The notes below the pieces were generated by a model. It was given only the letters and a program-made list of their open reading frames with translations, searched no databases and was not told the origin of the DNA. A DNA stretch of 56,332 bases from a virus. Its lineage: Duplodnaviria; Caudoviricetes. Location: the IMG/VR virus record IMGVR_UViG_3300029787_000057, positions 1 through 56,332 of that record; one strand, written 5' to 3'. Positions within the stretch are counted from its first letter, which is position 1. The number at the start of each line of letters is the position of its first letter. A program made the translations under genes and the position numbers. Positions 1 to 14,896 of the stretch are shown here, piece after piece.

Positions 1-59
1 CCATAAGTCTTGATCCCTCCTGTTGTGCGGTCTCCGCTTTACCCTCACTGTTGTATGCC
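1..59. repeat. Terminal overlap, copy 1 (imperfect direct repeat of 56274-56332)
   Basis: 52/59 identical to the last 59 nt; positions 30-59 fully identical. Confidence 0.95.
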
Positions 60-166
60 AGCCTATAACTCTCGGCATAAGAATTCCCAGCTGCCACGTG
101 CCTAGCAAATGCCATCATCTTTGGCGTAAGTTCTCTTTTCTTTTTCGGCATCTCTTTTTGATCCAT
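1..166 (-). CDS. terS: Terminase small subunit, N-terminal part (gene continues across the window junction into 55960-56332)
   Basis: Manual translation MDQKEMPKKKRELTPKMMAFARHVAAGNSYAESYRLAYNSEGKAETAQQEGSRLM is a typical TerS HTH start (LTPK..F...Y..AY). Its last 19 residues are also encoded at the other end of the window. Confidence 0.8.
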   Translation of the reverse strand, partial: MDQKEMPKKKRELTPKMMAFARHVAAGNSYAESYRLAYNSEGKAETAQQEGSRLM

Positions 167-308
167 GAAAGACGCTATCTATTCTGCCGGTCTTAAATCT
201 TTTTTCACTCCCACAAATAACAGCACACAATTTTTTTTGATTAATTTGTAATAACTTTTGAGTCCCGTCGTTTAAGTAGGTGAACGCAACACAAACAGGA
301 TCTAAAAA

Positions 309-533
309 ATGAACAACACAAAAAGAACGATCACAAAAAACGGGCAATCGGTTAGCTGTTTCGGCAAATGGAGATCAGACAGCAACGCCGCTTGTGTCTG
401 GAGCTTTGAGGATGGATATGTAGACACCGGATATTTCGCGGATGGTGCCGACACATGGGAACAGGCAGTTGAAAAAATGACGGCCTACACTCAAAGAATC
501 GGCGCGACATTGGACGAAATGCAGGCCTGTTAA
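309..533 (+). CDS. Hypothetical early protein
   Basis: 74 aa ORF with AGGA upstream. Confidence 0.7.
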   Translation: MNNTKRTITKNGQSVSCFGKWRSDSNAACVWSFEDGYVDTGYFADGADTWEQAVEKMTAYTQRIGATLDEMQAC

Positions 534-645
534 TAAAAAAATTTAAAAAAATAAAACCATATGAAACAACGACTTAACCATAAATCTCATTTGTCAAGTG
601 ATTTAATTGATGTGATACGCTTGTTATTCGTTGTTCATTGTGGCT

Positions 646-651
646 TATAAT
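646..651 (+). promoter_or_regulatory. Candidate sigma70 -10 box for the early leader/ardC transcript
   Basis: Perfect TATAAT downstream of an AT-rich tract, just before a GC-rich structured leader; -35 weak (TTGTTA 621-626). Confidence 0.5.
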
Positions 652-658
652 AGGGCCA

Positions 659-967
659 CGGCGACGGGGAGCCGACTGAATCCCGCCACTCTAACAAGGT
701 GAAGTGAGACTCCAAGCGAGCAGCACTGCCAGAGTGACCTACCAGCCGGGACAATGTGCTGGAGCGTGAGAGCCAAGATCTGAAGTGAGTCTCTTAGATA
801 GCAGCACTGGATCTAGCAAGCCACGCAAAGCCTAATCAGCTACCGAACTAAAGATGCGGTGAGGACTAGGGTTGAATGATTTTGTGAAGTACGACTTGGA
901 ACGAGCAACACTGCAAAGTCAGCCCGACATCTGGACGCATCCCAACTACCGGAAAACGATTTTTGTC
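659..967 (+). ncRNA. Putative structured leader/small RNA with three conserved-core hairpins
   Basis: No ORF. Three 27-nt cores GAAGT..CT-N6-.AGCA(G/A)CACT at 701, 782 and 886, each closed by a different stem. The 3' end is set by the hammerhead cut at 967. Confidence 0.6.
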
Positions 968-1015
968 TACGTCTAGAGCTGGCGTACTGATGAGGCCATA
1001 GCAAGCCGAAACAAA
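962..1015 (+). ncRNA. Hammerhead ribozyme, type III
   Basis: GUC 965-967; stem I TACGTC/GGCGTA; CTGATGA 987-993; stem II GGC/GCC; GAAA 1008-1011; stem III TTTGT/ACAAA. Confidence 0.92.
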
Positions 1016-1029
1016 TAACGGAGAACTAA

Positions 1030-1896
1030 GTGATGAGCGACAAGCAAAACATAAGAGAAGAAATCACGAACAACATCATAGCAATGATGGAGAAGAACAC
1101 CGGCGAATGGATTAAGCCATTTGCTGGACTAGCAGCTAGACCGATGAATCCTAAGACAGAGAAAAACTATAGCGGATTGAATGCGTTCTATCTGTCCCTA
1201 TTGGGTAATTCCTATTGGGCCACGTTCAACCAATGGAAAGAGATCGGCGCGAAGATCAAAAAAGGATCTAAGGGAACTCGGATCATGCGGCCTCAGGCAG
1301 TGATCATAAGAGATGAGAACGGTAAGCCTGAGATGGATAGCGAAGGCAATCCCAAAACTTTCACTCAATACAAGCCCTACCCGGTATTTAGTGCCGATCA
1401 GGTTGAGGGATGGGAAGCACCAGAGTTACCTACGATCAGCAATGTCCAGCGAATAGAAAACGTTGATAAGTATCTAAGGAATCTCGGCTCGGTGATCAAC
1501 TTCACGGACGCCGGACAAGCTTTCTATGATCGGTCAAGCGATCAGATCACATTGCCGAAAGAATGCCTGTTTAACGATACCGAAGGCTTCTATTCAACAT
1601 GGTGCCACGAAGAGATCCACAAGACCGGCGCACCTAACCGACTGAACCGAATCAAGGGTAAGAAGTTCGGTGATCGTGACTATGCTTTTGAGGAACTTGT
1701 CGCAGAGATCGGCGCAGCAATGCTATGTGTACAGCTACGAGTCACCCCAACAGTTCGCCAAGATCACGCCGAATATATCGGTAGCTGGTTGAAGGCTCTA
1801 CGCAATGATAAGAAATATCTAGCGGATGCGGCGACACTAGCCGGGGAAGCGATTGATTTCATGGACGCACAACAAACTAACCGGGCCGCTGCATAG
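1030..1896 (+). CDS. ardC: ArdC-family antirestriction protein (ssDNA-binding N-domain + zincin-like MPTase domain)
   Basis: W.KPF, N..T...YSG.N, W.TF.QW...G..IKKGSKG, VF.A.QVEG, AFY....D.I.LP, HEEIH.TG...RLNR, YA.EELVAEIGAA, HA.YI.SW motifs. Confidence 0.93.
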   Translation: MMSDKQNIREEITNNIIAMMEKNTGEWIKPFAGLAARPMNPKTEKNYSGLNAFYLSLLGNSYWATFNQWKEIGAKIKKGSKGTRIMRPQAVIIRDENGKPEMDSEGNPKTFTQYKPYPVFSADQVEGWEAPELPTISNVQRIENVDKYLRNLGSVINFTDAGQAFYDRSSDQITLPKECLFNDTEGFYSTWCHEEIHKTGAPNRLNRIKGKKFGDRDYAFEELVAEIGAAMLCVQLRVTPTVRQDHAEYIGSWLKALRNDKKYLADAATLAGEAIDFMDAQQTNRAAA

Positions 1897-1916
1897 CGGC
1901 TCAAGGAGAACGAGAG

Positions 1917-2144
1917 ATGATCGGAAAAAAAGTGATTGCGAATTACGGAGCCGGGTATCCATTGGAGTCTGGCGTGGTGTTCCAAGTTCAGGAGTCTGAA
2001 AAGAGCGTGGCGATTGAATGGGATTCTGGTGAAACCAGTTTCGTTCCAGTTGCCAAAATCAAAACAATATTTACCTCACTTGAGCTAGTCAAAAGATTTG
2101 AAGTGACTGGCCCGGTTGGAATTTTTTGGGAGAACAAGAGATGA
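1917..2144 (+). CDS. Hypothetical early protein (small beta-rich)
   Basis: ORF with GGAGAAC-N5-ATG RBS. Confidence 0.8.
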   Translation: MIGKKVIANYGAGYPLESGVVFQVQESEKSVAIEWDSGETSFVPVAKIKTIFTSLELVKRFEVTGPVGIFWENKR

Positions 2145-2377
2145 GTTACTTAACTGACGATCAGATAGATCAAATGGCTGACGCTGTAATGACTTCCCAC
2201 TTTTGGAATTGCGATTGGAACAACGCTCGGAGAACGGCGTTTGAATACAGCATAGACGAGTTTGGTATCAAGCCTAGGAAATCGGCGGTGTTGCTGGCTG
2301 TAAAAATCGCGCAAGCAAATTGTCACGCCCTTAACATTTCCGTGGCACAAAAAATAGCAGAGGAGAACGAGAGATGA
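2141..2377 (+). CDS. Hypothetical early protein
   Basis: ATG at 2141 preceded by GGAGAACAAGAG; ATGA coupling at both ends. Confidence 0.8.
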   Translation: MSYLTDDQIDQMADAVMTSHFWNCDWNNARRTAFEYSIDEFGIKPRKSAVLLAVKIAQANCHALNISVAQKIAEENER

Positions 2378-3159
2378 GAATTTTATCTTTTGGCGGCGGC
2401 GTAGACAGTAGCGCAGTGATACTGCACCACATACACAAAGAGGATCTAGGAATAGATCACATAGTATTTGCTGACACTGGCGCGGAGTCACAAGGCACCT
2501 ACAAGAACGTCGAGAACTTCAAGGCGATCTGTGAGGCTCGTGGCATACCATTCACCATTGTCAGACGCGAGGGCGAGAACATAACCGAGTGGGTCACAAG
2601 GTTGGGTATCGTGCCAGTTATGCCCGGAGGTGCTCACGTTTGCAGCAAGAAGTTTAAAGGTGACGTTATCCAGAAATGGGCAAGCGAGAACTTCCCCAGT
2701 CAGGCGATCACTTACCTAATCGGCATCGAGGCAGATGAGGGCCATCGCACTGCTAGATTTACCAAGCCGAAGGGCGATCAGAACGAGTACGAATACCCGC
2801 TAGTCGAGCGTGGCATGACTCGCCAAGATTGCTTGGATCTAATCGCAGAGCATGGGATGACGATTCCAAAATCGTCTTGCGTGTTCTGTCCCTTTATGTC
2901 TGAGCCGGAGATCAGAGAGGTTCGCAAGAATCCCGAAGACTGGGCAACCATCAAGCTTGTCGAGCAAAGATTCAGTGAGGAATCTGGACGCAAGCACCAA
3001 GCATGGCTGGACGCTGGCAAGCCACTTAACAAGGGCGGCAGATGCAACGCCGGACACTGGCGAAAGGATAGCTGGGCCGAAGGCACACGGCTATTTATTC
3101 GCAAGGTAGACGGCAAGCAGCTAACCGTGGACGAATGGTCAGAGCGAGTCAGCGGATAA
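2374..3159 (+). CDS. PAPS-reductase/PP-loop (adenine nucleotide alpha hydrolase) family protein
   Basis: N-terminal SFGGGVDS loop, FADTGAE, CS.KFK, IGI.ADE..R, YPL, and KSSCVFCP cysteine cluster. Confidence 0.85.
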   Translation: MRILSFGGGVDSSAVILHHIHKEDLGIDHIVFADTGAESQGTYKNVENFKAICEARGIPFTIVRREGENITEWVTRLGIVPVMPGGAHVCSKKFKGDVIQKWASENFPSQAITYLIGIEADEGHRTARFTKPKGDQNEYEYPLVERGMTRQDCLDLIAEHGMTIPKSSCVFCPFMSEPEIREVRKNPEDWATIKLVEQRFSEESGRKHQAWLDAGKPLNKGGRCNAGHWRKDSWAEGTRLFIRKVDGKQLTVDEWSERVSG

Positions 3160-3215
3160 TTCCAACTGATGAGTCTGGATAGTTACCAGACGAAACCCCT
3201 TCGGGGGTCTTGGAA
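3160..3215 (+). ncRNA. Hammerhead ribozyme, type I
   Basis: Stem I TTCCAA/TTGGAA; CTGATGA 3166-3172; stem II GTCTGG/CCAGAC; GAAA 3192-3195; stem III CCCC-TTCG-GGGG; GUC 3207-3209. Confidence 0.96.
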
Positions 3216-3236
3216 AACTAACAAGGAGAACAGTAG

Positions 3237-3407
3237 ATGAAAACGAGGCTAGTTATGGTTTCGGTAAAGAGCGACGAGGGCAAAAGCTTGTATCGTTTGG
3301 CACATGGCAAAGTTCTGGACAATGGCAAAGTGATCGTAAAGAAAAGCACTAAGGATGCAATGATCAAAGAGCTAGGGATCCAGCGCGGTGAGAATGTCCA
3401 CGGCTAG
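3237..3407 (+). CDS. Hypothetical small basic protein (56 aa, not in ORF track)
   Basis: GGAGAACAGTAG-ATG; MKTRLVMVSVKSDEGK...ENVHG*. Confidence 0.75.
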   Translation: MKTRLVMVSVKSDEGKSLYRLAHGKVLDNGKVIVKKSTKDAMIKELGIQRGENVHG

Positions 3408-3410
3408 AGC

Positions 3411-3438
3411 TTGCAATCAAAACAATAATCACTAAACT
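3411..3438 (+). promoter_or_regulatory. Candidate internal sigma70 promoter
   Basis: TTGCAA-16-TAAACT in an A/C-rich intergenic gap. Confidence 0.4.
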
Positions 3439-3472
3439 AAAAACACAACTAACAACTAACGGAGAACAAGAG

Positions 3473-3673
3473 ATGAGAAACTTTATTAAAGACAGCGTTA
3501 AATACTATTTAGCAGTAGTTCAAGGAATGTGGATGCCGGTGTTCATTATTGCCGGTATGCAATATCTAGGTTACGAGTTCTACCTTTCGTTTAACTCGCT
3601 GATCTGTGGAGTGCTGATCGGGTTAAGCATGATGTCCATATACCTATTGGCACCTACCAGCGAGGAGGAGTGA
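3473..3673 (+). CDS. Small two-TM membrane protein
   Basis: Two hydrophobic stretches; conserved RBS motif. Confidence 0.75.
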   Translation: MRNFIKDSVKYYLAVVQGMWMPVFIIAGMQYLGYEFYLSFNSLICGVLIGLSMMSIYLLAPTSEEE

Positions 3674-3882
3674 TGGGCCTAATGAAACACAACGAGAGAC
3701 ACGGCGGCGCATATGACCGAGGGAGTGCTGATGCTTGGTATGGGCGACCATGCCAGCCACACTACTATGTAGGCGACTCATACTTTAGCGATAGGGTAGA
3801 GGAAGCAGACATGAGCGAGGAAGAGATCGCCGCTTACATGAAGGGCTACGGAGACGGCCCCCACGATCAGAAAGAATACTAA
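3670..3882 (+). CDS. Hypothetical phage protein (RHGG.YDRGSAD.WYGR type)
   Basis: ORF with strong GGAGGAG RBS; motif recalled from phage hypotheticals. Confidence 0.8.
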   Translation: MMGLMKHNERHGGAYDRGSADAWYGRPCQPHYYVGDSYFSDRVEEADMSEEEIAAYMKGYGDGPHDQKEY

Positions 3883-3897
3883 ACAGGAGAACTAGAG

Positions 3898-4350
3898 ATG
3901 AAAAGGAAAGGATGGATTGTAAGAGAAGCAACACAACAATATTTAATCAACAGTATAACCCTAGACGGGTACACCGACGAGAACGGCAACGAATACAATC
4001 GTCGAGTTTGGAACTTCAATCGTCTTGAAGATTCGTCTAGGAACAACGAGGCAACTATGACAGACGGAGAGAAGATTGCTGCTGCAAAGCGGATCTTTGA
4101 GTCTGAGATGGGCTGGTTGATTGAGAGATCAGGAAAGCGAAGAGCCTGTGCCGATTGGCTGGCTGGACTGTGCAGCACTGTATCAATCTCATTTACCTAC
4201 TGCGACATAATCAAACTAGCCCACGAGACTGGTGCGCTAAACGAAAACTCAACGGAGAAAGAAGAAGACCGCATTTGCGAAAACTACTTTTCGTACATGG
4301 CAAGTAATCTTGTGGAGCTATTCAACAAACAAGAAAGGAGAACAGCATGA
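3898..4350 (+). CDS. Hypothetical early protein
   Basis: 150 aa ORF, conserved RBS motif. Confidence 0.8.
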   Translation: MKRKGWIVREATQQYLINSITLDGYTDENGNEYNRRVWNFNRLEDSSRNNEATMTDGEKIAAAKRIFESEMGWLIERSGKRRACADWLAGLCSTVSISFTYCDIIKLAHETGALNENSTEKEEDRICENYFSYMASNLVELFNKQERRTA

Positions 4351-4565
4351 GTTGTAACACTCAAATTGGTAAATACTTTAGATGCGGCGGTCATAACATC
4401 GCCGGACAGAGAATACTTTGTGACGTTTGTGAAGACAAACAGTCGAGGTACCCGAAACAAAGACCCCTCGAATCATGGAGTGCTGACACTTGGGAAGATT
4501 GGGACTGGGTTGATACAGAAAAGCCAAAGAAAAACCCACGGACTTATGATTTGAGCAAATGGTAA
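4347..4565 (+). CDS. Small Cys-containing (Zn-finger-like) protein
   Basis: C..C and CDVC; GGAGAAC RBS. Confidence 0.65.
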   Translation: MSCNTQIGKYFRCGGHNIAGQRILCDVCEDKQSRYPKQRPLESWSADTWEDWDWVDTEKPKKNPRTYDLSKW

Positions 4566-4575
4566 AAAGGAGAAA

Positions 4576-4962
4576 ATGATGAAGTATCACGAATGGTATA
4601 CGAGCGAGAGAATATGTCGGACTTGGAAAGATGATTGCACTGTGAGATCTCTGAGCATTGTGCTCAACAAGCCATACAAAAAAGTGTTTAGCGAGTTGAT
4701 GCACCTTGGCCTAGAGATGGGTGCCTATCCAGACCACGATAAAGTATGGATTGCATACGCTGAGGATCAAGGGCTAGTCAAACGCAAATGCCCACGAGAT
4801 GACAACGGGAAGCTTATCAAGCTTAGAGACTGGGACTTCAAGGGAGTGGCAGTCGTAAAGAACAGCGGTCATCTAACGGCAGTTGAAGACGGCTATGTGT
4901 GTGACATATGGGATTGTAGATATAGGCCAGTGAATACTTACTGGGAAAAAATAAACTTTTAG
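4576..4962 (+). CDS. Putative papain-like/C39-like cysteine peptidase-fold phage protein
   Basis: DCTVRSL (Cys), GHLTAVEDG (His), DIWD (Asp) in papain-fold order. Confidence 0.6.
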   Translation: MMKYHEWYTSERICRTWKDDCTVRSLSIVLNKPYKKVFSELMHLGLEMGAYPDHDKVWIAYAEDQGLVKRKCPRDDNGKLIKLRDWDFKGVAVVKNSGHLTAVEDGYVCDIWDCRYRPVNTYWEKINF

Positions 4963-4973
4963 GAGAACGAGTG

Positions 4974-5192
4974 ATGGAAAGATTAAAACAAGGGATCGTC
5001 ATAGAGATACGCAACGTTTACGGAACAGAAAAAGTCTATCCAGTTTGCGAACACGCTCACGCATTTGCAGAGATCGCAGGGACTAAGACTCTGACTCACG
5101 AGGCTTTGGTTCTCATTAGGGATAAACTGAAATACGAGTTGATATTGGAACAGAAGTCGGTACTAGCTGAATCATTGGGGGTGCAACAATGA
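4974..5192 (+). CDS. Hypothetical phage protein (NVYG...YP.C..A..FA.IAG.KTLT)
   Basis: ORF with conserved RBS motif. Confidence 0.8.
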   Translation: MERLKQGIVIEIRNVYGTEKVYPVCEHAHAFAEIAGTKTLTHEALVLIRDKLKYELILEQKSVLAESLGVQQ

Positions 5193-5428
5193 ACGTAGAG
5201 AAAAGAATTGACGAGATCAGAGCGAAGCTAGAATCAGATCTACCACGCAAGCAGAGAATCCTTTGGATTTTTGAGATCGGGAGACTTGCTGAGGAGCTAC
5301 TTAGATTCGCCAAGCAAGGAGAGATCGGTAATCGTAACTGGACTGAGAATAAAGAAATGATTGTCTTTCTGGATTCATGGGAACACGCAGAGATGCAAGA
5401 GATGATGGCCGCTAACGAGGAGAACTAA
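5189..5428 (+). CDS. Hypothetical early protein
   Basis: Coupled ORF. Confidence 0.7.
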   Translation: MNVEKRIDEIRAKLESDLPRKQRILWIFEIGRLAEELLRFAKQGEIGNRNWTENKEMIVFLDSWEHAEMQEMMAANEEN

Positions 5429-5430
5429 AG

Positions 5431-5601
5431 ATGAAAGCAACACTACATTTCAAAACGACTGACGAGCCTATTGATATTGAGGCAAACACATTTGCCGGAT
5501 TGTTCAGATCATTCACTAAGACTCTGAGAGATCAGGGTCTTTACGAAGACGATCTGACATTGGTAGTGATGGATTACAAAACTCAAAGGGAGGCGAGTTG
5601 A
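5431..5601 (+). CDS. Hypothetical small protein (56 aa, not in ORF track)
   Basis: GGAGAACTAAAG-ATG; MKATLHFKTTDEPIDIEANTF... Confidence 0.75.
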   Translation: MKATLHFKTTDEPIDIEANTFAGLFRSFTKTLRDQGLYEDDLTLVVMDYKTQREAS

Positions 5602-5843
5602 TGAAGAGAAGGAAGAGAACAAACATCTTAAAGTTTAATAGACCAAGAACCATCAAAGAGGTAGAGGCTTTATGGTTTGTTGATTACATAGAAAGGGATT
5701 GGGATCCTTTTGAGAGTTCTTACTGGATCTATCTCAAAGAGGGATTCAGATTAAAAACACTTGAAACTATTTGTATTCACGAGGAAACCCTACGAGAAGC
5801 CATTGAGATGCTAGACGATGTATATGAGGGGGAGTGGGCATGA
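5598..5843 (+). CDS. Hypothetical early protein
   Basis: Coupled ORF, GGAGG RBS. Confidence 0.7.
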   Translation: MMKRRKRTNILKFNRPRTIKEVEALWFVDYIERDWDPFESSYWIYLKEGFRLKTLETICIHEETLREAIEMLDDVYEGEWA

Positions 5844-6172
5844 AAAAAGGAATATATCTTGTTTACGAGTGGGCGATCCACACTAACTGCACAGAGATTC
5901 AGGAGGATGATGGGTCAACCTCGATTGACTATGACGGCGATTGCCAGTTTCACGATACCTATGCTGGTGTTGCTGACATTGGCAACCCCGATGAGATCAA
6001 TGTAATCGAGCTTCAAAGATCTCACAGATATGTAGAAGACGGAGATCTTATTGAGAGGTATTACGCAGTGATGGAGGAAGGCAAGCTACCAGAGTTTTTT
6101 GACGGAACGCAGATAAAAATTCCAAAAAGATTCCATGATGAGCTTAACAACTACAGGGAGAAAGCAAGTTGA
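5840..6172 (+). CDS. Hypothetical acidic protein
   Basis: Coupled ORF, D/E-rich. Confidence 0.75.
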   Translation: MKKGIYLVYEWAIHTNCTEIQEDDGSTSIDYDGDCQFHDTYAGVADIGNPDEINVIELQRSHRYVEDGDLIERYYAVMEEGKLPEFFDGTQIKIPKRFHDELNNYREKAS

Positions 6173-6420
6173 TAATTAATTTTAAGAGTTTAGATGATGG
6201 CCTTAGTTTACTTATGAAAAGGCCAAAGAAGAAACCCGATGCTTTCTACGGCAAAGCTAATAGGCTTGCAAAAAAACTTGGCGTTGAAATCACTATCGAG
6301 AAAAACCAAGACTATGGTAATGGCTATTGGATCGAGACTGATGCCATGCAAGACGAAAGGTTTTCAAGTAGCTGGGAAGATGTCTACTACAAGTTAAGGG
6401 CAATAGAGGAGAACGAGTAA
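6169..6420 (+). CDS. Hypothetical early protein
   Basis: Coupled ORF. Confidence 0.65.
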   Translation: MIINFKSLDDGLSLLMKRPKKKPDAFYGKANRLAKKLGVEITIEKNQDYGNGYWIETDAMQDERFSSSWEDVYYKLRAIEENE

Positions 6421-6433
6421 AGGAGATGAGTTT

Positions 6434-7075
6434 ATGGAATGCAGGAGCTTAGACTTTGATTTGCTAGCAAAAGCAGAGGCAGAAACAAAAGCCAACGACA
6501 AAGGCTATTTTGTTAGGCAAGTTAATTACAGGGACACGATTGATTTCATACTAAATATACACTACGCAAAAAGGGTGCCATCAATCTCTTATGCCTACGG
6601 ACTATTCTATGAATCAGAATTGACCGGGGTTGTGACTTATGGAAAACCGGCTAGTAGAAATTTGTGTGAGGGAATTTGTGGTGTGGAATATTCCCCGATT
6701 GTATTTGAACTGAATCGTCTGGTTCTTAAAAACAACAAGAAAAACGAAAGCAGTTTCTTAATATCCCAAAGTTTAAAGATGTTACCAAAGCCAATGGTAA
6801 TCGTCAGCTATGCCGATACAGAACAGGATCATGTTGGTTACGTTTATCAGGCAACGAATTTTCTATTCACTGGCACTACGAAAGAACGAACAGATATGGC
6901 AAGCGAGGATGGAAAACATAGTAGACACGATCTCGGCGATCCCGATCAAAGAAAAAAAAGATGGGCAAAACACCGCTATATTTTTTTTGTGGGTAGCAAA
7001 AAGGATAAGAAAAATCTTTTAGGTAAATTGAAGTATCCAATAAAACCCTACCCAAAAAATATCGAGGGAAACTAG
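6434..7075 (+). CDS. mom: Mom-like GNAT-fold DNA (adenine) modification protein
   Basis: HY, GLF....L.GV..YG.P, ELNRL, ES..IS.SLK, VSYAD..Q.H.G.VYQATNF..TG, K.RY motifs of the phage Mu Mom family. Confidence 0.82.
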   Translation: MECRSLDFDLLAKAEAETKANDKGYFVRQVNYRDTIDFILNIHYAKRVPSISYAYGLFYESELTGVVTYGKPASRNLCEGICGVEYSPIVFELNRLVLKNNKKNESSFLISQSLKMLPKPMVIVSYADTEQDHVGYVYQATNFLFTGTTKERTDMASEDGKHSRHDLGDPDQRKKRWAKHRYIFFVGSKKDKKNLLGKLKYPIKPYPKNIEGN

Positions 7076-7306
7076 ATGAAAAATAAACACGGACAGACCC
7101 CGCAAGAGGTTACACGGGCAAACGTTCTGCAACAGCTACGCTTCATGGCAACAAACGAAAGTGGATATGCAGAACTAAGTCTCTACAACGAGAACACCTC
7201 GTCTTTCTTGAAAGAGGTGCGAAAGCATTACGCCAAGATCAATAACACCCTAGCTTATAAGTGGGGCATGGACGAGAACACTATTGATATGAAGGAGGTC
7301 AAATGA
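7076..7306 (+). CDS. Hypothetical early protein
   Basis: Adjacent ORF with RBS. Confidence 0.7.
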   Translation: MKNKHGQTPQEVTRANVLQQLRFMATNESGYAELSLYNENTSSFLKEVRKHYAKINNTLAYKWGMDENTIDMKEVK

Positions 7307-7310
7307 CGGC

Positions 7311-7565
7311 ATGGCTGAAGTAAAAAAACTCAAACGAGTTAACGAGATCGGGTTGCGATACGTTTATCAGATCCTAAAGAATGAGAGTCAATACGGCTCT
7401 GTCTATCAGGACTTTAATCAAAACGATATGGCGATCCACAACCTAGCTAAAGAAGCTGATGACAATGTGATGAGGGGCGGTAAGCCCCTCTTTACTTTGA
7501 GGGATCACGAGACTTTATCTAGGGAGGAAAAGGTTTACGAAATACCCGAACAAGGTGTTGACTAA
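7311..7565 (+). CDS. Hypothetical early protein
   Basis: ORF, GGAGG upstream. Confidence 0.7.
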   Translation: MAEVKKLKRVNEIGLRYVYQILKNESQYGSVYQDFNQNDMAIHNLAKEADDNVMRGGKPLFTLRDHETLSREEKVYEIPEQGVD

Positions 7566-7615
7566 CAAACAACAATCAACGAGGATACGACACATAAATA
7601 ACAGGAGAACTAAAG

Positions 7616-7945
7616 ATGGCAATGGAAATGGCAACACAAGAAGACTACGAAGCGTTGGAGATGGAACACGGCGGCACCGACTATCATAAGTATTGCATCG
7701 TCATACAGGGAAGTGATGGCGGCATGGGGATTGTAGGCGAGTTTGGCACCCCAAAAGATGCGGCAGTTTACTACAAAGAAATGATCGAGAAAGACGCAGA
7801 GCCAAATGACGTTGTAACGATTCATCCAATAACTATGGTGTCCAGACTCTATACCCCAGAAAGAAAAGACGAGCTTTTAGTTCGTAACGAGGATGGAAAC
7901 TATTACGTTGCAGACAAAGACATACACATCAACAAGGGAGAATAG
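7616..7945 (+). CDS. Hypothetical acidic protein
   Basis: Conserved RBS motif. Confidence 0.8.
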   Translation: MAMEMATQEDYEALEMEHGGTDYHKYCIVIQGSDGGMGIVGEFGTPKDAAVYYKEMIEKDAEPNDVVTIHPITMVSRLYTPERKDELLVRNEDGNYYVADKDIHINKGE

Positions 7946-8160
7946 TGATGAAAGTATTTGATATATCCGATGACCCCCAATCTATCTTAGGCCACTTGAT
8001 GAATACAGCTATGACTAGATCATGGCGCGATAAAGTCGAGCAGCAAGGATACTTACCAGAAGCAGCCGACGAGCAGATGGAACGTTTATACGGCGATCAA
8101 TGGATTGCTGCTAGAGAAAGTATCTGGCAGCAAGTGGACAACGAGATGGAGAACAAGTGA
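7945..8160 (+). CDS. Hypothetical early protein
   Basis: Coupled ORF. Confidence 0.75.
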   Translation: MMKVFDISDDPQSILGHLMNTAMTRSWRDKVEQQGYLPEAADEQMERLYGDQWIAARESIWQQVDNEMENK

Positions 8161-8528
8161 TGGCGAAAGAGAAAGCAGAAGAGAGCGAGATAGCTGATCT
8201 CAAGGAGGAGATCAAAGAACTGCAAAAGTGTGTTGAGGAGATTAAAGAACTGAAAAGAAGATTGGACACACAGAAACACATTATTCAAGAGCAATACGCA
8301 TTGAGATACCGAGGCGACAAGATTGGGGATATTTTAGGAGACATATCTCTCAAGGATCTTTTAGAGATCATTATGCACCAGCGGCACAATATCGTTTTCA
8401 AACATTATCCAGCAAACGGAGATTATGGTTATCTGATTGATCTGGATTTAGATTCGTCACCATATGTCTGCCCAGATGGAGCACTGCATCTTGAATTCAG
8501 ATACTCACCCGACAACTACGAAACTTAA
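8157..8528 (+). CDS. Hypothetical protein with N-terminal coiled coil
   Basis: Heptad-rich N-terminus; RBS motif. Confidence 0.75.
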   Translation: MMAKEKAEESEIADLKEEIKELQKCVEEIKELKRRLDTQKHIIQEQYALRYRGDKIGDILGDISLKDLLEIIMHQRHNIVFKHYPANGDYGYLIDLDLDSSPYVCPDGALHLEFRYSPDNYET

Positions 8529-8546
8529 CCAACAGGAGAACTAAAA

Positions 8547-8813
8547 ATGGAAAAACCAATAACAAAATTCTTTACTTTCAAGTCTCTAAAAGACGCTAAC
8601 GAGAAAGCAAAATCCCTCAACTTGAACAGGACTTTGAGCAAGAAGTTTTTTAAAGAGCTTGATCGTTCAAAGGTCTACCCGATTAGCTTCACGATGACTC
8701 ATAACGATGATCAAGTGAGGGTTCGTTTTGTTCATGATGAGCATGGCACTGAACTAAGCGCGGCTTGGATTGATATGACGTTTGAAGATTTTTTCGCATT
8801 ACCATCAGCATAG
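8547..8813 (+). CDS. Hypothetical early protein
   Basis: Conserved RBS motif. Confidence 0.8.
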   Translation: MEKPITKFFTFKSLKDANEKAKSLNLNRTLSKKFFKELDRSKVYPISFTMTHNDDQVRVRFVHDEHGTELSAAWIDMTFEDFFALPSA

Positions 8814-8822
8814 GAGAATTAA

Positions 8823-9101
8823 GTGATGAACTTATTTAAAGCACCGATTATGTTTTCTTTAACCATTGATGAGATAGAACTTCTCATGGATGTTTTGAAC
8901 AGGGCCGAGAGTGATCTGAGCGGAGTGGCAGATGTGCCAGAACGTGATGATGGCATAGAGGGATACGCCGAGTATGCCCTGATTACTATGCACTCTAGGT
9001 TGACGAGCCTCTTAAGTAAGCTTGAGGATCAATCTGGTTTGGATTGGGAGTTTGACGTAGCGACTCAAAGATACTTTCATGTCCAAGATACTGGAGTGTG
9101 A
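8823..9101 (+). CDS. Hypothetical acidic protein
   Basis: RBS motif variant. Confidence 0.75.
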   Translation: MMNLFKAPIMFSLTIDEIELLMDVLNRAESDLSGVADVPERDDGIEGYAEYALITMHSRLTSLLSKLEDQSGLDWEFDVATQRYFHVQDTGV

Positions 9102-9102
9102 T

Positions 9103-9285
9103 ATGAAAACTAGAGAGCTAACCCTAACCGACGATCAGGTTATTTCTTTGATTGAATGTGTCAGGTTTGGAATCAACTCAAAAGACATGGAACTCTTTGA
9201 GAATGATCTATCTGATATTAAATCCGAGTTAGAAGTGATCCTGCGATTCATGGAAGCAGATCGCAAAGAGATTGTGTCGGCATAA
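9103..9285 (+). CDS. Hypothetical small protein
   Basis: ATG 9103 with GGAG RBS; last gene of the early block. Confidence 0.7.
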   Translation: MKTRELTLTDDQVISLIECVRFGINSKDMELFENDLSDIKSELEVILRFMEADRKEIVSA

Positions 9286-9297
9286 AACCCAAGGCCA

Positions 9298-9402
9298 GCG
9301 GAGAGGTCAGGGGGTTCTCACAATACTACGGTGTTGTTTCTAGTGAAACAGGAGAGATGAAGTGGATCCGACTAACATCATCCCAATCTCTCCATTCTCC
9401 GC
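9298..9402. other. Multi-stem structured element at the convergent early/replication junction
   Basis: GCGGAGA/TCTCCGC closing stem; inner GGAGAGAT/ATCTCTCC, CAATAC/GTGTTG and TGTTTC/GAAACA stems. Confidence 0.5.
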
Positions 9403-9403
9403 A

Positions 9404-9892
9404 CTAACCTACCCTTAAATATCTGCGATCAATAAGATCTAGACCCACCTTCAAAATGAGCAGCTCGTCAGCATTTACAGGGCGATCATCACACACAACA
9501 TTGACTACCATCTCAGCACCCGACCGACCGATCTCTCCACTCATCAGGTTCATGATTCTGGAAAGCTTCAGTATCCCGTAGTTATATATATCCTTTGACC
9601 CACCACCACCAACTGCCATCAGGTTTGGAGTCTTTACAAACAGACCAGCATTAACGGCAACGGTCAGTAGATACTCTGCTGCTTTGTGCTGATTCATGTC
9701 TATGTAATCATCCAGCAACAAGCGATCAATCATCTTCTGATCGGCAACCCTAGCTCTACCTATCGCCTCACCTTCAGGCTCTTCTAGTATTACCTCGTGC
9801 TTTTTGTGGAGTTCTAGACTTCCAATGTCATTAAAAGTCCCACTCGTTTTCCGTTTCTTGGAAACTTCGCACCCCCTTAATATCAGGAACAC
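9404..9892 (-). CDS. Hypothetical protein downstream of the helicase
   Basis: 162 aa ORF; true start probably the internal GTG (VSKKRK). Confidence 0.7.
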   Translation of the reverse strand: MFLILRGCEVSKKRKTSGTFNDIGSLELHKKHEVILEEPEGEAIGRARVADQKMIDRLLLDDYIDMNQHKAAEYLLTVAVNAGLFVKTPNLMAVGGGGSKDIYNYGILKLSRIMNLMSGEIGRSGAEMVVNVVCDDRPVNADELLILKVGLDLIDRRYLRVG

Positions 9893-11579
9893 TTACCACA
9901 TTCGGCTCGTAGTATCTGCCATTAATGAAATTATAGTGTAACTCGCCCATCCCAACTGATCCAACCCATTTAAATCTGCTCTTCCAGCAGTGAACCTCAA
10001 TGTGCTCGTCTTCTCTATGGACTGTGATCCCACAATCTGCTTTGGCAAACCATGCCGCACTACCCGATATGTGATTGCCGTTTGGTATTGGGAACTTCCC
10101 CGAATCATTCGCTCTCATTTTTGCTGGATGTGCCACAAACCAAATATGCAAGTCATGAGATCTAGCAAACGTAACCATGCGAGTTAGCATTTCAGATATG
10201 GATTGATGCTCGTTCTCTGTAGCTACTTGGGCTATGTAATTGTATGGATCAACAATCAAACCCCTGCATCCTAGTCGCAGCACTGCTGACTTAGTGCGAT
10301 CAATGATTGACTCTATCGTTGACGGCTCTCCATCTCGGCTATCAAGAAATGCAAAATGATTGTTAACCCATTGTTTCGCTTGTGTTTTTTCATCGTCACT
10401 CATTCTCTGATGAGCACCATCAAAGAACGGTTTGCCGATATACTTCTCAGCTAGTTTTATAATGTGAAGTGCTGGGGGATTCTCAAAGGAGGCAACAGCA
10501 AACTTCCAATCATGATCTAATGCTAGGTTGACCATAACGGCATCAACCCACTCAGACTTACCTGATCCCGGTTGACCAGTGACAACCGTTAACTGTCCCG
10601 GCAAGACCGTGTAAATATCATCAAGACATCTGAAGCCAGTGGACTTACCGCCCATCAATCCCTTCTCGTAAAGAAAGTCTACATCCTCAGAGTAATCGTT
10701 GGCAGAATACACACCGACCAGTGGCACCGGCTCTGCTTGATCTATGCAATCAGATAATATTTCTTTCCCAAGATTAACGAGTATGTCGTTTGGATCTTTG
10801 GATCCTTCTGGATACTGCACCCGATAGCATTTAGCTCTACCGACTCGACGCTGTATCTCTTCAGCCAAAGCTTCTCCCGGCTCGTCGTTATCAACTGCCA
10901 ACACAATCTTTTCTGTTTGTTCTAGTAAATCTTTTGCAGCCCATAGATATGCAAACTTGCGATCTTCACTAGGCTCAACTTTACGATTGGATACCTTTTG
11001 TGGTGCTCCGTTGGGTACGCTTACTACGAGCGTGTCTGAGTCGGTTATAGAGCTTTTGATAGCTAGGACATCTATCTCCCCCTCAGTGATCACAATACGC
11101 TTATACGGCTCTTCACGCAGCTTCTTAGGCATCCAAAATGTTCTTGCTGCACCGTCTTGAGTAAAGAACTTGAAGTTAGTAGATCTCCACTTGATCGCTT
11201 CGTTGTCTTCATAGACGAATCCGATAGCTTGCATCTCGCCCTCATTGTGAAAATATTTAGTGCCAGATACGATCCGATAATCTTTTACGTCTTGGTAGTC
11301 TATCCCTCTCGTTTCTAAGTATTCTTTTATCATCCCCTCATCACTTTTCTTTGGCACCGAGATCGCTGTTACAGGACTCTTCCATACTGGTGCTCCACCC
11401 TTCTTGGCAGCACCCGATAGGCCACAGTGCCAACACTGATATAACACTCGATCAACCTCAACAGTGATCTGTAAATCACTCCTACGTTTCTTCCTGTCAT
11501 TGCTACACATGGGGCAGGGAACACGTTTCGTTTCTGTGTGAGAGGTGACAAATGCCTTTAGGTCTTCTTCGTTCATCAT
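9831..11579 (-). CDS. Bifunctional primase-helicase (T7 gp4/Twinkle-like)
   Basis: Zn ribbon CPMC..CWHC; TOPRIM ITEGEID and AVDND; Walker A GQPGSGKS; SFEN; IVDPYN; VAHPAK; ISGSA; K.RF. Confidence 0.95.
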   Translation of the reverse strand: MMNEEDLKAFVTSHTETKRVPCPMCSNDRKKRRSDLQITVEVDRVLYQCWHCGLSGAAKKGGAPVWKSPVTAISVPKKSDEGMIKEYLETRGIDYQDVKDYRIVSGTKYFHNEGEMQAIGFVYEDNEAIKWRSTNFKFFTQDGAARTFWMPKKLREEPYKRIVITEGEIDVLAIKSSITDSDTLVVSVPNGAPQKVSNRKVEPSEDRKFAYLWAAKDLLEQTEKIVLAVDNDEPGEALAEEIQRRVGRAKCYRVQYPEGSKDPNDILVNLGKEILSDCIDQAEPVPLVGVYSANDYSEDVDFLYEKGLMGGKSTGFRCLDDIYTVLPGQLTVVTGQPGSGKSEWVDAVMVNLALDHDWKFAVASFENPPALHIIKLAEKYIGKPFFDGAHQRMSDDEKTQAKQWVNNHFAFLDSRDGEPSTIESIIDRTKSAVLRLGCRGLIVDPYNYIAQVATENEHQSISEMLTRMVTFARSHDLHIWFVAHPAKMRANDSGKFPIPNGNHISGSAAWFAKADCGITVHREDEHIEVHCWKSRFKWVGSVGMGELHYNFINGRYYEPNVVSVPDIKGVRSFQETENEWDF

Positions 11580-11637
11580 TTTCTTCCATTTGACTGACTG
11601 TTATTTGTGTGCTAATTGTTTATAGGACACGCTCATT

Positions 11638-11729
11638 GAGATCGTTCTCTTACTAAGTAAGAAGAGAACATTCTCATCTAGATTGTTCTCATGAGATTGT
11701 TCTCCTTATTTTTTTAATAGATTGTTCTA
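11638..11729. repeat. Cluster of five 12-bp quasi-palindromic (G/T)AGA-N4-TCT(C/A) sites (iteron/operator-like)
   Basis: GAGATCGTTCTC 11638, GAGAACATTCTC 11664, TAGATTGTTCTC 11679, GAGATTGTTCTC 11693, TAGATTGTTCTA 11718. Confidence 0.7.
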
Positions 11730-11934
11730 CGAGCTTTTCCGCTCTGGCACCATCCTCACTGAGAATATCTGTTGCCATGCGTTTTAATTCTTCTGTATCT
11801 AAGCCAAGTGTTTTTGCGGTAGTGCCTAGCATCTGATCATCTAGGAAAAAAGAGCAAGCGGATCGGCGGTCTTTGCTGCTCTTGGAGGTGAGGTCTTTGA
11901 AGCTACGTTCAAGGACTGCAAGCGATAGACTCAA
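11689..11934 (-). CDS. Hypothetical protein
   Basis: ORF between rusA and the helicase, same strand. Confidence 0.65.
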   Translation of the reverse strand: MSLSLAVLERSFKDLTSKSSKDRRSACSFFLDDQMLGTTAKTLGLDTEELKRMATDILSEDGARAEKLVEQSIKKIRRTIS

Positions 11935-12274
11935 CTAGAATCTCCGCTCTAGGATTCTCTTTATCAAGACCATGATAAATATGCTTCTCTTTAATTTGGC
12001 GATCATTCTTATACGCTACCCCTTCCAGTAGATCCATGATCAGGCTTTCGTCTAGATCAGGTCTTCTGGTTGCGTAGTAGATAGTTGCTGTTAGTCTTAC
12101 ATCCCCCTCGATGAGTTCTTCTCTTTGAGGGCATTGGGCATCAAATGCTTTCTTGTAATCCAGAGCTTTCTTGGATTTCACAAACCTTGGTTTGCCACCG
12201 AAAGCCACTAACCTTCTACTGTTTGCTTTACTAGCTGGCTCTCCATATACTGTTATTTCGTAAGAGTTTGACAT
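11909..12274 (-). CDS. rusA: RusA-family Holliday junction resolvase
   Basis: GEPASKAN, RRPDLD, DLLEG..YKNDRQI, PRAEI motifs. Confidence 0.9.
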   Translation of the reverse strand: MSNSYEITVYGEPASKANSRRLVAFGGKPRFVKSKKALDYKKAFDAQCPQREELIEGDVRLTATIYYATRRPDLDESLIMDLLEGVAYKNDRQIKEKHIYHGLDKENPRAEILVESIACSP

Positions 12275-12296
12275 GATATGTTGGTTACTATACGAT
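12268..12296 (+). promoter_or_regulatory. Strong sigma70 promoter for the recombination operon
   Basis: TTGACA-17-TACGAT; lies within an inverted TTTGACA...TGTCAAA pair (12267-12303). Confidence 0.75.
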
Positions 12297-12315
12297 TGTC
12301 AAATAACTGGAGAAC

Positions 12316-12702
12316 GTGATGAGTAAGATTGGTAACTATGTTATTGCAATGGAGGAGGAAGGCAACTTCTTCTACAACGAAAAGGAAAAACGATATGAGC
12401 GAAGGCGTACTGAAAAGAAACGTAGATCACCCCGTCAGGGCGAAGATGCAACGTCTACCCCAGATACCATTCTCACAGATGAAATACCGAGACTGTTGGG
12501 AACTGGAAGTGGAGGAGGGTCAGTTTACGAGCAGGATCGCAGCAGTAAGGTCTTCCTACAAAAGATGGAGAGATGCAAACGAAGAGGACGAAAGGGAGTT
12601 CTCAATCGGAAAGAGCAACGATCAAGAAAACACTATCGCCGTATACTGTTACTCGGACAAGAGCCAAGAATCAGAAAGCTCTCAATCAACAGGCGTAAGT
12701 AA
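12316..12702 (+). CDS. Hypothetical basic protein (overlaps 12395-12778 in another frame)
   Basis: GGAGAAC RBS; stop coupled to the next ATG (TAATG). Confidence 0.5.
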   Translation: MMSKIGNYVIAMEEEGNFFYNEKEKRYERRRTEKKRRSPRQGEDATSTPDTILTDEIPRLLGTGSGGGSVYEQDRSSKVFLQKMERCKRRGRKGVLNRKEQRSRKHYRRILLLGQEPRIRKLSINRRK

Positions 12703-14439: not shown

Positions 14440-14491
14440 CGTGCATATTGAATTCAGTTTAATTTACGACACAGAAACGGAGGAGGTTTCT

Positions 14492-14888: not shown

Positions 14889-14896
14889 GGAAACTT

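What the first reader, a model, noticed from the sequence alone, without database searches (positions are those of the whole stretch)
687..941. Ribozyme-released ~310 nt early RNA with three conserved 27-nt hairpin cores and variable 6-nt loops
Seen: GAAGTGAGACTCCAAGCGAGCAGCACT (701-727), GAAGTGAGTCTCTTAGATAGCAGCACT (782-808) and GAAGTACGACTTGGAACGAGCAACACT (886-912). All are exactly 27 nt, consensus T-GAAGT-RMG-WCT-N6-KAG-CAR-CACT-G. Each sits on a different, compensating basal stem (GGT/GCC within CACTCT/AGAGTG; AGATCT/GGATCT within GCGTG/CACGC; TGATTTTGT/GCAAAGTCA within GATGCG/CGCATC). The region lies between TATAAT (646) and the hammerhead cut (967), so it would be released as a discrete RNA among the first transcripts. 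Inference: a multivalent protein-binding sponge or decoy (anti-defence RNA), or a small catalytic motif. Structured motifs are known near ribozyme-associated phage genes, but I cannot match this one.
Basis: partly seen in the sequence, partly recalled or inferred. Interest (0 to 1): 0.8.

Follow-up and report, generated by a model that had tools for sequence, protein, structure and literature searches.

The report
Modular phage early leader RNA
The three look-alike hairpins are real and belong to a conserved, folded, roughly 310-base non-coding RNA that a group of uncultured aquatic phages makes first on infection and cuts free with a self-cleaving ribozyme; it matches no catalogued RNA family and its job is not yet known.

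Summary
Observation confirmed. The three 27-nt cores stand at 701-727, 782-808 and 886-912, against 0.07 matches expected by chance.

They are part of a conserved RNA. 23 of 61 predicted pairs keep pairing through changes on both sides in 8 relatives.

Layout:
- a promoter-like box;
- a near-invariant 5' pseudoknot candidate (659-685);
- hairpins that repeat one internal-loop module;
- a defined 3' end.

The 3' end is a type III hammerhead here (cut after C967). It is a type I hammerhead or a terminator-like hairpin in relatives.

Every member found lies in one phage clade (TerL 80-99% identical), between terS and an early operon that usually holds ardC.

Module number varies. There are three here and two in most relatives. 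Other hairpin types replace them in some, and one divergent pair has about eleven related hairpins.

Rfam gives no match.

My best reading is a free early RNA that offers several binding sites to one protein. This is inferred, not shown. No expression data could be had.

Earlier notes of this scan (e1-6240560, e1-6079309) describe analogous hammerhead-ended phage leaders on other DNA.

The parts
621..651 (+). Promoter-like boxes: TTGTTA (621-626), a 19-nt spacer and TATAAT (646-651). The last T lies 8 nt before GGCGAC.
   Evidence: Sequence. Most relatives show, read by eye, a TTGNNN box about 17-20 nt before a T-A-rich -10-like hexamer that ends about 8 nt before GGCGAC. L372, L387 and L389 fit poorly and L380 has no clear -35 box. 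The consensus scan did not list it, because the spacer is 19 nt. The transcription start is inferred, not mapped.
659..685 (+). 5' domain, a candidate H-type pseudoknot. S1 is CGGC 659-662 with GCCG 671-674. S2 is CGGGG 665-669 with UCCCG 681-685.
   Evidence: In 12 aligned members the stretch G660-C672 and the stretch G678-A688 are invariant. S1 pairs 4-19 and 5-18 each keep pairing through a change on both sides, in one sequence each (L391, L389). S2 never varies, so it is untested. Relatives insert a 5-14-nt extra piece or hairpin between the two halves.
687..736 (+). Unit 1 hairpin: outer stem CACUCU 687-692 with AGAGUG 731-736, basal GGU 698-700 with GCC 728-730, core 701-727.
   Evidence: Outer-stem pairs change on both sides in 3 of 8 sequences. 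The apical helix CUC/GAG becomes ACC/GGU in L012, L135 and L150.
742..762 (+). Small conserved hairpin: CCAGC 742-746 with GCUGG 758-762.
   Evidence: Present in all 12 aligned members. The pair C746-G758 is CG in 6, AU in 5 and UG in 1.
764..826 (+). Unit 2 hairpin: outer GCGUG 764-768 with CACGC 822-826, basal AGAUCU 776-781 with GGAUCU 809-814, core 782-808.
   Evidence: A canonical unit sits here only in the window's close relatives and L150. Other members carry a different hairpin at this place.
853..941 (+). Unit 3 hairpin: outer GAUGCG 853-858 with CGCAUC 936-941, GGGU 869-872 with GCCC 922-925, basal UGAUUUUGU 877-885 with GCAAAGUCA 913-921, core 886-912.
   Evidence: The outer stem is fully replaced in L012 (CACUUG/CAAGUG). 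Basal-stem pairs change on both sides in several members.
961..1016 (+). Type III hammerhead ribozyme. Cleavage after C967. Stem I is 968-973 with 981-986, the core CUGAUGA is 987-993, stem II is 994-996 with 1005-1007, GAAA is 1008-1011, and stem III is 962-966 with 1011-1015.
   Evidence: Sequence. The Rfam Hammerhead_3 hit scores only 17.7 bits against a gathering score of 48.5 (E 0.64). Stems I, II and III covary among the window, L001/L002 and L313. Cleavage was not tested.
1030..1896 (+). First gene behind the RNA: an ArdC-like protein (ArdC N-terminal domain plus a zincin-like metallopeptidase).
   Evidence: Pfam PF08401 (E 3.4e-23) and PF18818 (E 3.4e-40). A homologue lies downstream of the RNA in 11 of 19 family loci.

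Best explanation
This is a gene for a discrete, folded non-coding RNA of about 310 nt. It is the first thing on the rightward early transcript of a clade of uncultured aquatic tailed phages.

Shown here:
- A conserved secondary structure on the + strand.
- A near-invariant 5' domain that can form an H-type pseudoknot.
- A string of hairpins that repeat one module. The module is a basal helix closed by U.G, then a G-A-A bulged stretch, then a short helix G4-Y5-R6 with Y24-R25-C26, then an asymmetric internal loop (RMGW opposite CAR), then a 3-4-bp apical helix with a loop of any sequence.

Inferred:
- Host RNA polymerase starts at about 657-659.
- The hammerhead cuts after C967 and frees the RNA from the ardC message.
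- The free RNA acts in trans as a platform with several copies of one binding site, for a protein of the host or the phage.
- Given its place at the head of an operon of anti-restriction-type genes, it may work as a decoy or sponge.
For: Structure:
- 23 of 61 consensus pairs keep pairing through changes on both sides in 8 sequences.
- In 23 unit instances (20 distinct), 93% of cells pair against 79.2% in shuffles. The covariation score is 0.442 against 0.154, reached by 0 of 500 shuffles. Module pair 5-25 is U-A in 16 and C-G in 4.

Strand:
- Invariant U.G pairs close each unit. They would be C.A mismatches on the other strand.

Discreteness:
- The invariant 5' domain sits at a fixed distance from a promoter-like box.
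- The 3' end is made three different ways in relatives. It is a type III hammerhead (window, L012, L001/L002), a type I hammerhead (L150) or a covarying terminator-like hairpin (L372, L373, L383, L380, L387, L389).
- The gene directly behind the RNA differs among members.

Modularity:
- The canonical unit number is 3 (window, L012, L135, L150) or 2 (L372, L373, L383, L380).
- It is 0 at E up to 0.05 in L386, L387, L389 and L391. L387 and L389 carry other hairpin types, and L386 carries diverged units read by eye.
- About 11 GGCAG hairpins stand in the ~690-nt leader of L001, and they show the same 5-25 covariation against L002.
- Repeated, independently placed copies of one internal-loop motif with free loops fit repeated binding sites better than one fixed fold.

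Context:
- ArdC, PAPS-reductase-like and Mom-like genes follow.
Against: - No expression data: no RNA run was listed.
- No binding partner is known and none was sought experimentally.
- Folding energy is not exceptional. The whole leader has z +0.40. The units have z -0.30, +1.51 and -2.02 and the 5' domain +0.59. The case for structure therefore rests on covariation alone.
- All members come from one phage clade, so part of the covariation is counted on related sequences.
- Hammerhead cleavage is inferred from sequence. The Rfam score is far below the gathering score.
- Some members lack the canonical module altogether (L387, L389, L391). The module therefore cannot be essential to whatever the 5' domain does.
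- The anti-defence role rests only on neighbouring genes.
Confidence: 0.4

Rival explanations
1. The modules are building blocks of one compact tertiary fold. The RNA would be a large ornate RNA with its own activity or scaffold role. The conserved internal loops would make RNA-RNA contacts within the molecule, or between copies, rather than bind a protein.
For: The internal loops are conserved while the helices covary. The hairpins are not stable by nearest-neighbour energy, as expected if something else stabilises them. A near-invariant 5' pseudoknot candidate heads the RNA. Further conserved single-stranded stretches (GGUGAAG, GGGUUGAA) flank unit 3 in all 8 aligned members.
Against: The number and kind of modules vary widely among close relatives: 0, 2, 3 or about 11. 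That is hard to square with one fixed fold. No covariation between loops or between modules was seen.
Confidence: 0.2
2. It is a cis-acting leader. It would modify the transcribing polymerase (processive antitermination, like put RNA of HK022), or shield the long untranslated start of the early operon from Rho and nucleases. It would not act in trans.
For: It always lies right behind the early promoter at the head of a long operon, whatever the next gene is. In six relatives a terminator-like hairpin follows it, and downstream genes need read-through of that hairpin.
Against: In the window, L012, L001/L002 and L150 a self-cleaving ribozyme follows the RNA directly. That would cut the tether to the polymerase and to the message. 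A hammerhead and a terminator are interchangeable only as makers of a 3' end. The hairpin's U-tract is short (UUUCGAG), so it may not terminate at all. The resemblance to put is recalled, not tested.
Confidence: 0.15
3. The units mimic a specific RNA of the host that a defence protein binds. One case would be CRISPR repeats, as in RNA anti-CRISPRs (Racr). Another would be the antitoxin RNA of a type III toxin-antitoxin system.
For: The unit length (27-33 nt), the hairpin shape, the several copies and the place beside anti-restriction genes. Racrs are described as repeat mimics encoded singly in viral genomes (PMC10651486, abstract seen).
Against: The units are not tandem, and their spacing is irregular (81 and 104 nt). 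The unit model finds nothing above 20.4 bits in five diverse bacterial genomes (only 150 candidates scored per genome). The host and its CRISPR repeats are unknown. No toxin endoribonuclease gene was looked for.
Confidence: 0.08
4. It is a DNA-level element: protein-binding iterons or cruciforms for replication or packaging next to terS.
For: It lies beside terS. The cores are direct repeats.
Against: Long flanking stems change in a compensatory way while the sequence is free. Invariant U.G pairs work on one strand only. The ends of the element coincide with a promoter-like box and a ribozyme or terminator-like hairpin.
Confidence: 0.03

Closest known systems
Hammerhead ribozymes flanking genes or short gene blocks in prophages and phages (Perreault et al. 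2011, PMC3088659; passages read)
   Same: Hammerheads punctuate a phage polycistronic transcript. That paper's Agrobacterium example flanks an anti-restriction gene (ardA). Here a type III hammerhead precedes ardC and a type I hammerhead follows the PAPS-reductase-like gene.
   Different: In the passages I read, that work describes the ribozymes and the messages they cut out. It does not describe a conserved multi-hairpin non-coding RNA released upstream of the first ribozyme. Supplements could not be seen.
Protein-sponge RNAs with repeated hairpin sites, such as CsrB/RsmZ (recalled, no call)
   Same: Several copies of one short motif are presented on separate hairpins of one RNA, and the copy number varies among relatives.
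   Different: The motif here is an internal loop, not a GGA in the apical loop. The apical loops are free to vary. No partner protein is known. The RNA is phage-encoded and ribozyme-ended.
RNA anti-CRISPRs (Racr; PMC10651486, abstract seen) and phage pseudo-ToxI repeats (recalled)
   Same: These are phage-encoded small structured RNAs that act as decoys against a host defence and are encoded near other counter-defence genes.
   Different: No likeness to any CRISPR repeat or antitoxin repeat was shown. The units are embedded in long, different stems at irregular spacing and are headed by a conserved pseudoknot domain.
put RNA of phage HK022 and nut/boxB sites of lambdoid phages (recalled)
   Same: Structured RNA just downstream of the early promoter, made of stem-loops.
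   Different: Those act in cis on the polymerase and stay part of the transcript. This RNA is 4-5 times longer and is cut off by a ribozyme.
Earlier notes of this scan on other DNA: e1-6240560 (knot-headed ~310-base leader, swappable middle, hammerhead end) and e1-6079309 (~600-base leader before an anti-restriction operon ending at a hammerhead)
   Same: The same layout: a conserved head, a variable folded middle and a hammerhead at the end, at the head of a phage operon.
   Different: A look-up with window 655-970 shared no short words with those windows. They are therefore analogous, or too diverged to tell. I did not see their sequences.

Membership tests
Any Rfam 15 family | Match to a covariance model at or near its gathering score | tested here: not met
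   There are 0 matches at gathering score in the whole window. At E up to 10 on 500-1100 the only hits are Hammerhead_3 (17.7 bits) and three noise hits. There are none at E up to 1 in L150 and L138. In L373, L383, L380 and L366, Hammerhead_II downstream is the only hit at gathering score. The rest are four sub-threshold hits, one of which (group-II-D1D4-4, 22.2 bits, E 0.23) overlaps the RNA in L380.
Hammerhead ribozyme, type III (the 3' end maker) | Core CUGAUGA ... GAAA, cleavage triplet NUH, three helices with stem III open | tested here: met
   The parts are GUC967, stem I 968-973/981-986, CUGAUGA 987-993, stem II 994-996/1005-1007, GAAA 1008-1011 and stem III 962-966/1011-1015. All three stems covary among the window, L001/L002 and L313.
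Hammerhead ribozyme, type III | Rfam RF00008 gathering score | tested here: not met
   17.7 bits against 48.5. The type II hammerheads of relatives do pass theirs (38.5-39.1 bits against 37).
Hammerhead ribozyme, type III | Self-cleavage | not testable with these tools
   Needs an in vitro transcription and cleavage assay.
CsrB/RsmZ-type sponge RNA | GGA motifs in the hairpin loops (recalled definition) | tested here: not met
   The loops of the 23 units vary freely (CAAGC, UUAGA, GGAAC, GAAAC, GUAAC, GAAC, UAAC, GAGA ...). GGA is present in only a few.
Type III antitoxin RNA (ToxI-like) | Tandem near-identical repeats of about 34-45 nt next to a toxin endoribonuclease gene (recalled definition) | tested here: not met
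   The units are 81 and 104 nt apart on different stems. The next gene is ArdC-like. Toxin genes elsewhere were not searched.
RNA anti-CRISPR (Racr) | Sequence and structure mimic of the host's CRISPR repeat | not testable with these tools
   The host is unknown. The nearest cultured phages by TerL (55-57%) infect Pelagibacter and carry neither the unit nor hammerheads.
tRNA or tmRNA-like element | Detected by ARAGORN | tested here: not met
   0 genes in the window. The ...GAAUCCCGCC... stretch only recalls a T-arm.
Kink-turn or sarcin-ricin internal loop | Tandem sheared G.A after a 3-nt bulge; or AGUA opposite GAA (recalled consensus) | tested here: not met
   I read the unit alignment by eye. 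No register puts GA/GA or AGUA/GAA across the loop. The AGUACGA..GGAAC likeness of unit 3 to the sarcin-ricin loop fails because loop position 14 is G, A, U or C in relatives. No motif program was run.

The most novel reading that the evidence does not exclude
This is a new class of phage RNA-based counter-defence. An abundant early RNA, released by a ribozyme or ended by a terminator, carries 2 to about 11 copies of one internal-loop module. The copies titrate a host immune or RNA-binding protein. Copy number would expand and modules would be swapped among relatives under an arms race.
Probability: 0.15. Interest if true: 0.85.

Novelty: new variant of a known kind. Interest (0 to 1): 0.6.

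Why it matters
Phage non-coding RNAs with known roles are few. This is a well-delimited RNA gene with a conserved head, a repeated module whose copy number changes between close relatives, and three different ways of making its 3' end. It stands at the very start of an operon of anti-restriction-type genes.

If it binds a host factor, it would add an RNA decoy to the known protein-based counter-defences. It would also give a function to ribozyme-punctuated early operons, whose purpose has been open since 2011.

Even without a function, it supplies a new RNA family with enough covariation for a seed alignment.

Tried and rejected
Searches that added nothing:
- blastn (distant mode) of 540-1030 against 50,697 phage records gave no match.
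- One pattern scan was mistyped, with 13 N instead of 12. It gave only chance hits and cost one scan.
- The single-unit and two-unit patterns in viral contigs found only near relatives; 2 of 7 loci real; 2 of 4 real; the other two are tandem coding repeats.
- The same two-unit pattern in metagenome contigs gave 1 real locus of 10, L150.
- The unit-3-type pattern gave 31 viral loci, of which 2 were the known relatives L135 and L138.
- My filter, run over the loci numbered L155 and above, found 148 matches. None had a second unit within 400 nt.
- 71 loci that share the ArdC gene or the type I hammerhead hold no unit at E below 0.01. The best is L310 at E 0.066, left open.
- Five whole related virus records held none. 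Four cultured phage records nearest by TerL held no unit at E below 0.5 and no hammerhead pattern.
- A count of GGCAG clusters over all held loci is not specific, because coding regions score as high.

Ideas dropped:
- Sarcin-ricin, kink-turn, tRNA-like and CsrA-site readings (see the membership tests).
- A recalled likeness of GGUGAAGU to the 16S decoding site. The partner strand does not fit the covarying flank. Relatives have GUAGUGAG or GUAAG. Five bacterial genomes give no rRNA hit.
- An arginine-rich small ORF behind the RNA in L150 as a boxB-type partner. Its homologue in L310 stands behind a leader without units, and the window has no homologue.

Not obtained:
- No RNA holder was listed by the look-up of sequencing runs.
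- No paper in the held library contains the 14-nt 5' domain string.
- Searches for papers on hammerhead plus early phage RNA and on RAGATH found nothing on this RNA. RAGATH families held in Rfam did not match.
- Supplements of papers were not seen and may hold unlisted motifs.

Full report
**1.

The three cores are at 701-727, 782-808 and 886-912 on the + strand. A pattern made from them matches three times in the window. Shuffles give 0.07 on average, and 0 of 100 shuffles reach three.

The repeat finder groups them as one 29-nt family with spacings of 81 and 104 nt. A covariance model of the unit (R1, built from 12 units of four sequences) scored every position of the window. It finds only these three (52, 48.4 and 46 bits; the next hit scores 16.6).

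**2. The surroundings.**

The window is a complete virus record of 56,332 bases. Its contents:
- Genes on the + strand from about 300 to 17,300 are of early type. They encode an ArdC-like protein at 1030-1896. They also encode a PAPS-reductase-like protein, a Mom-like protein, an exonuclease, Erf and NinB.
- Primase-helicase and RusA-like genes lie on the - strand at about 9,400-12,300.
- The large terminase gene is on the - strand at 53985-55496. The other large - strand ORFs from 17,552 onwards were not annotated.
- No phage RNA polymerase was found among the 25 proteins scanned.

The small terminase gene starts at 166 and runs leftward. The 74-aa gene at 309-533 and the gene-free stretch 534-1029 follow on the + strand. 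The nearest cultured phages by large terminase are Pelagibacter phages HTVC027P and HTVC023P (55-57% identity).

**3. Finding relatives.**

Similarity search against deposited phages found nothing. Exact-pattern scans did.
- Near relatives are L012/L138 and L135 in viral contigs.
- A 1,415-base metagenome contig, L150, is also a member.
- After I changed to the unit-1 type pattern and then to the 5' domain pattern, a wider set appeared. It comprises L365, L368/L372/L388, L373, L383, L380/L384, L386/L392, L387, L389, L390 and L391, and probably L366.
- The 5' domain pattern matched 16 viral loci in all.

All belong to one clade. 14 of 19 family loci reach the large terminase gene, and there it is 80-99% identical to the window's. 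17 of 19 show the start of terS pointing away from the RNA. 11 of 19 show an ArdC homologue downstream.

**4. The structure is conserved.**

- With four sequences, 17 of 71 predicted pairs kept pairing through changes on both sides. With eight sequences it was 23 of 61.
- Examples. The outer stem of unit 3 is GAUGCG/CGCAUC here and CACUUG/CAAGUG in L012. Its basal stem is UGAUUUUGU/GCAAAGUCA here and UGGUCUCGU/GCGAGACCA there.
- Over 23 unit instances from 11 of 15 sources (20 distinct), 93.0% of cells pair against 79.2% in shuffles. The covariation score is 0.442 against 0.154, reached by 0 of 500 shuffles. Sliding the partner by one to three columns drops pairing to 22-56%.
- That alignment was fitted to the model, so it leans towards the structure. 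The MAFFT alignment of the first 12 units gives the same picture.
- The pairs closing each unit are invariant U.G, so the fold belongs to the + strand.
- Energy does not help. The z-scores are +0.40 for the whole leader and -0.30, +1.51, -2.02 and +0.59 for its parts.

**5. Anatomy of the family**.

(a) Promoter-like boxes.
- A TTGNNN box comes first, then about 17-20 nt, then a T/A-rich -10-like hexamer that ends about 8 nt before GGCGAC. Here the boxes are TTGTTA, a 19-nt spacer and TATAAT.
- I read these boxes by eye. Three members fit poorly and one more (L380) lacks a clear -35 box.

(b) The 5' domain.
- In 12 aligned members the stretches GCGACGGGGAGC and GAAUCCCGCCA are invariant. The whole domain reads ACGGCGACGGGGAGCC...GAAUCCCGCCAC.
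- It can form an H-type pseudoknot.
- S1 (659-662 with 671-674) is backed by two changes on both sides, each in a single sequence (L389 and L391).
- S2 (665-669 with 681-685) never varies and so is untested.
- Relatives insert an extra piece or hairpin between the halves.

(c) Unit 1 on a bulged outer stem.

(d) A small hairpin present in all 12 aligned members, with a covarying pair.

(e) A middle domain.
- It holds a canonical unit only in the window's close relatives and in L150.
- Elsewhere it holds a hairpin that keeps only the apical helix and the 3' GCAG.

(f) Unit 3 on a long composite stem, flanked by conserved GGUGAAG and GGGUUGAA.

(g) A 3' end element.

**6. The module.**

Consensus over 23 instances:
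- U.G closes the basal helix.
- G-A-A follows, with an extra U in two instances.
- A helix G4-Y5-R6 with Y24-R25-C26 comes next. Its pair 5-25 is U-A in 16 and C-G in 4.
- An internal loop follows: R6-M7-G8-W9 opposite C21-A22-R23.
- A 3-4-bp apical helix that covaries tops it, with a loop of 4-5 nt of any sequence.

Positions 6 and 23 change together (G with G; A or U with A). This is not Watson-Crick covariation and I cannot explain it.

In the divergent pair L001/L002 the 5' strand reads GUAGUGAG and the 3' strand CAGUACAG. There the change at position 2 (A to U) goes with a change at 27 (U to A). This suggests a 2-27 pair, which I read by eye only.

**7. Three ways to end the RNA.**

- Here and in L012 a type III hammerhead follows. 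It has cleavage after C967, the full core, and three stems that covary among the window, L001/L002 and L313. Rfam's model gives it only 17.7 bits.
- In L150 a type I hammerhead follows, of the kind that also stands at 3160-3215 in the window and in 56 other viral loci.
- In L372, L373, L383, L380, L387 and L389 a covarying GC-rich hairpin followed by UUUCGAG stands there instead. Type II hammerheads that pass Rfam's threshold come only after the next small gene.

A hammerhead and a terminator-like hairpin share one effect: they give the upstream RNA a defined 3' end. The gene directly behind the RNA also varies:
- ardC here;
- a small arginine-rich ORF in L150;
- a conserved 18-codon ORF in several others.

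This is why I read the RNA as a unit of its own rather than as the 5' UTR of ardC.

**8. Copy number and swapping.**

- R1 finds three units in the window, L012, L135 and L150, and two in L372, L373, L383 and L380.
- It finds one each in L365 and L390, which are cut at a locus end, and one in L366.
- It finds none at E up to 0.05 in L386, L387, L389 and L391.
- L386 has diverged units. L387, L389 and L390 carry another hairpin type (GAUCG..CCGCAACGGGCAUAUCG) at the same places.
- L001/L002 have an ArdC 78% identical to the window's. Their ~690-nt leader holds 11 GGCAG in hairpins and ends in the same type III hammerhead. Between L001 and L002 the hairpins change in a compensatory way, including module pair 5-25.
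- L313, also of the clade, has only a short leader and a hammerhead.

**9. What it is not.**

- No Rfam family matches.
- It is not a tRNA or tmRNA.
- No ORF is conserved across the family. The ORFs in 635-1004 have 34-54 codons, and the members differ there by insertions and deletions.
- The unit model finds nothing above 20.4 bits in five diverse bacterial genomes. Only 150 candidates per genome were scored. A mimic of a universal cellular RNA is therefore unlikely.

**10. Reading.**

Shown: a conserved, strand-specific fold, delimited by a promoter-like box and a 3' end element, made of a fixed head and exchangeable repeated modules.

Inferred: it is transcribed early, released, stable and active in trans.

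The repeated module has a conserved internal loop, free apical loops and a variable copy number. That fits several binding sites for one protein better than one fixed fold, so I commit to that reading at about 0.4.

The rivals are a compact self-folding RNA, a cis-acting leader, a specific mimic of a defence RNA, and a DNA element.

Hammerheads that cut phage operons into pieces, one of them around an anti-restriction gene, were described in 2011 (PMC3088659, passages read). In the passages I read, the released upstream RNA is not part of that description.

Earlier notes of this scan report analogous leaders on other DNA.

Noticed in passing
window 3160-3215: A second hammerhead, type I: UUCCAA-CUGAUGAG-UCUGG..CCAGA-CGAAAC-CCC UUCG GGG-GUC, cut after 3209. 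It stands directly after the PAPS-reductase-like gene. The same stem I sequence recurs in 56 viral loci.
   Followed up: partly
L001 1572-2259 (and L002): A ~690-nt gene-free leader between terS and a type III hammerhead upstream of an ArdC 78% identical to the window's. It holds 11 GGCAG in hairpins and shows compensatory changes between L001 and L002. It is probably a much expanded relative of the window's RNA.
   Followed up: partly
L373, L387, L372, L389 (just after the RNA): A conserved 18-codon ORF (MDNQDH.DFEDFMREQNL type) lies between the RNA's terminator-like hairpin and a type II hammerhead. It is absent from the window.
   Followed up: partly
L387, L389, L390: A second hairpin type (GAUCG-NN-CCG-CAA-CGG-GCAUAUCG) takes the places of the canonical units in some members.
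   Followed up: no
L150 (minus strand): Three type I hammerheads stand within 1.4 kb, each after a small ORF. The first ORF is arginine-rich and has a homologue behind a different leader in L310.
   Followed up: partly
unit positions 6 and 23 (e.g. window 706/723, 891/908): The two positions change together as G with G, or A/U with A, across 23 units. This is not Watson-Crick covariation and is unexplained.
   Followed up: no
L140, L141, L152: A tandem coding repeat holds GAAGTGAGCACGAGCTTCGGCAGCACT, which fits the unit pattern by chance. It is a warning for pattern-only searches.
   Followed up: yes
window 1-166 and 55960-56332: The terS reading frame does not continue in frame when the two window ends are simply joined. 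The record ends may overlap or lack a few bases.
   Followed up: no
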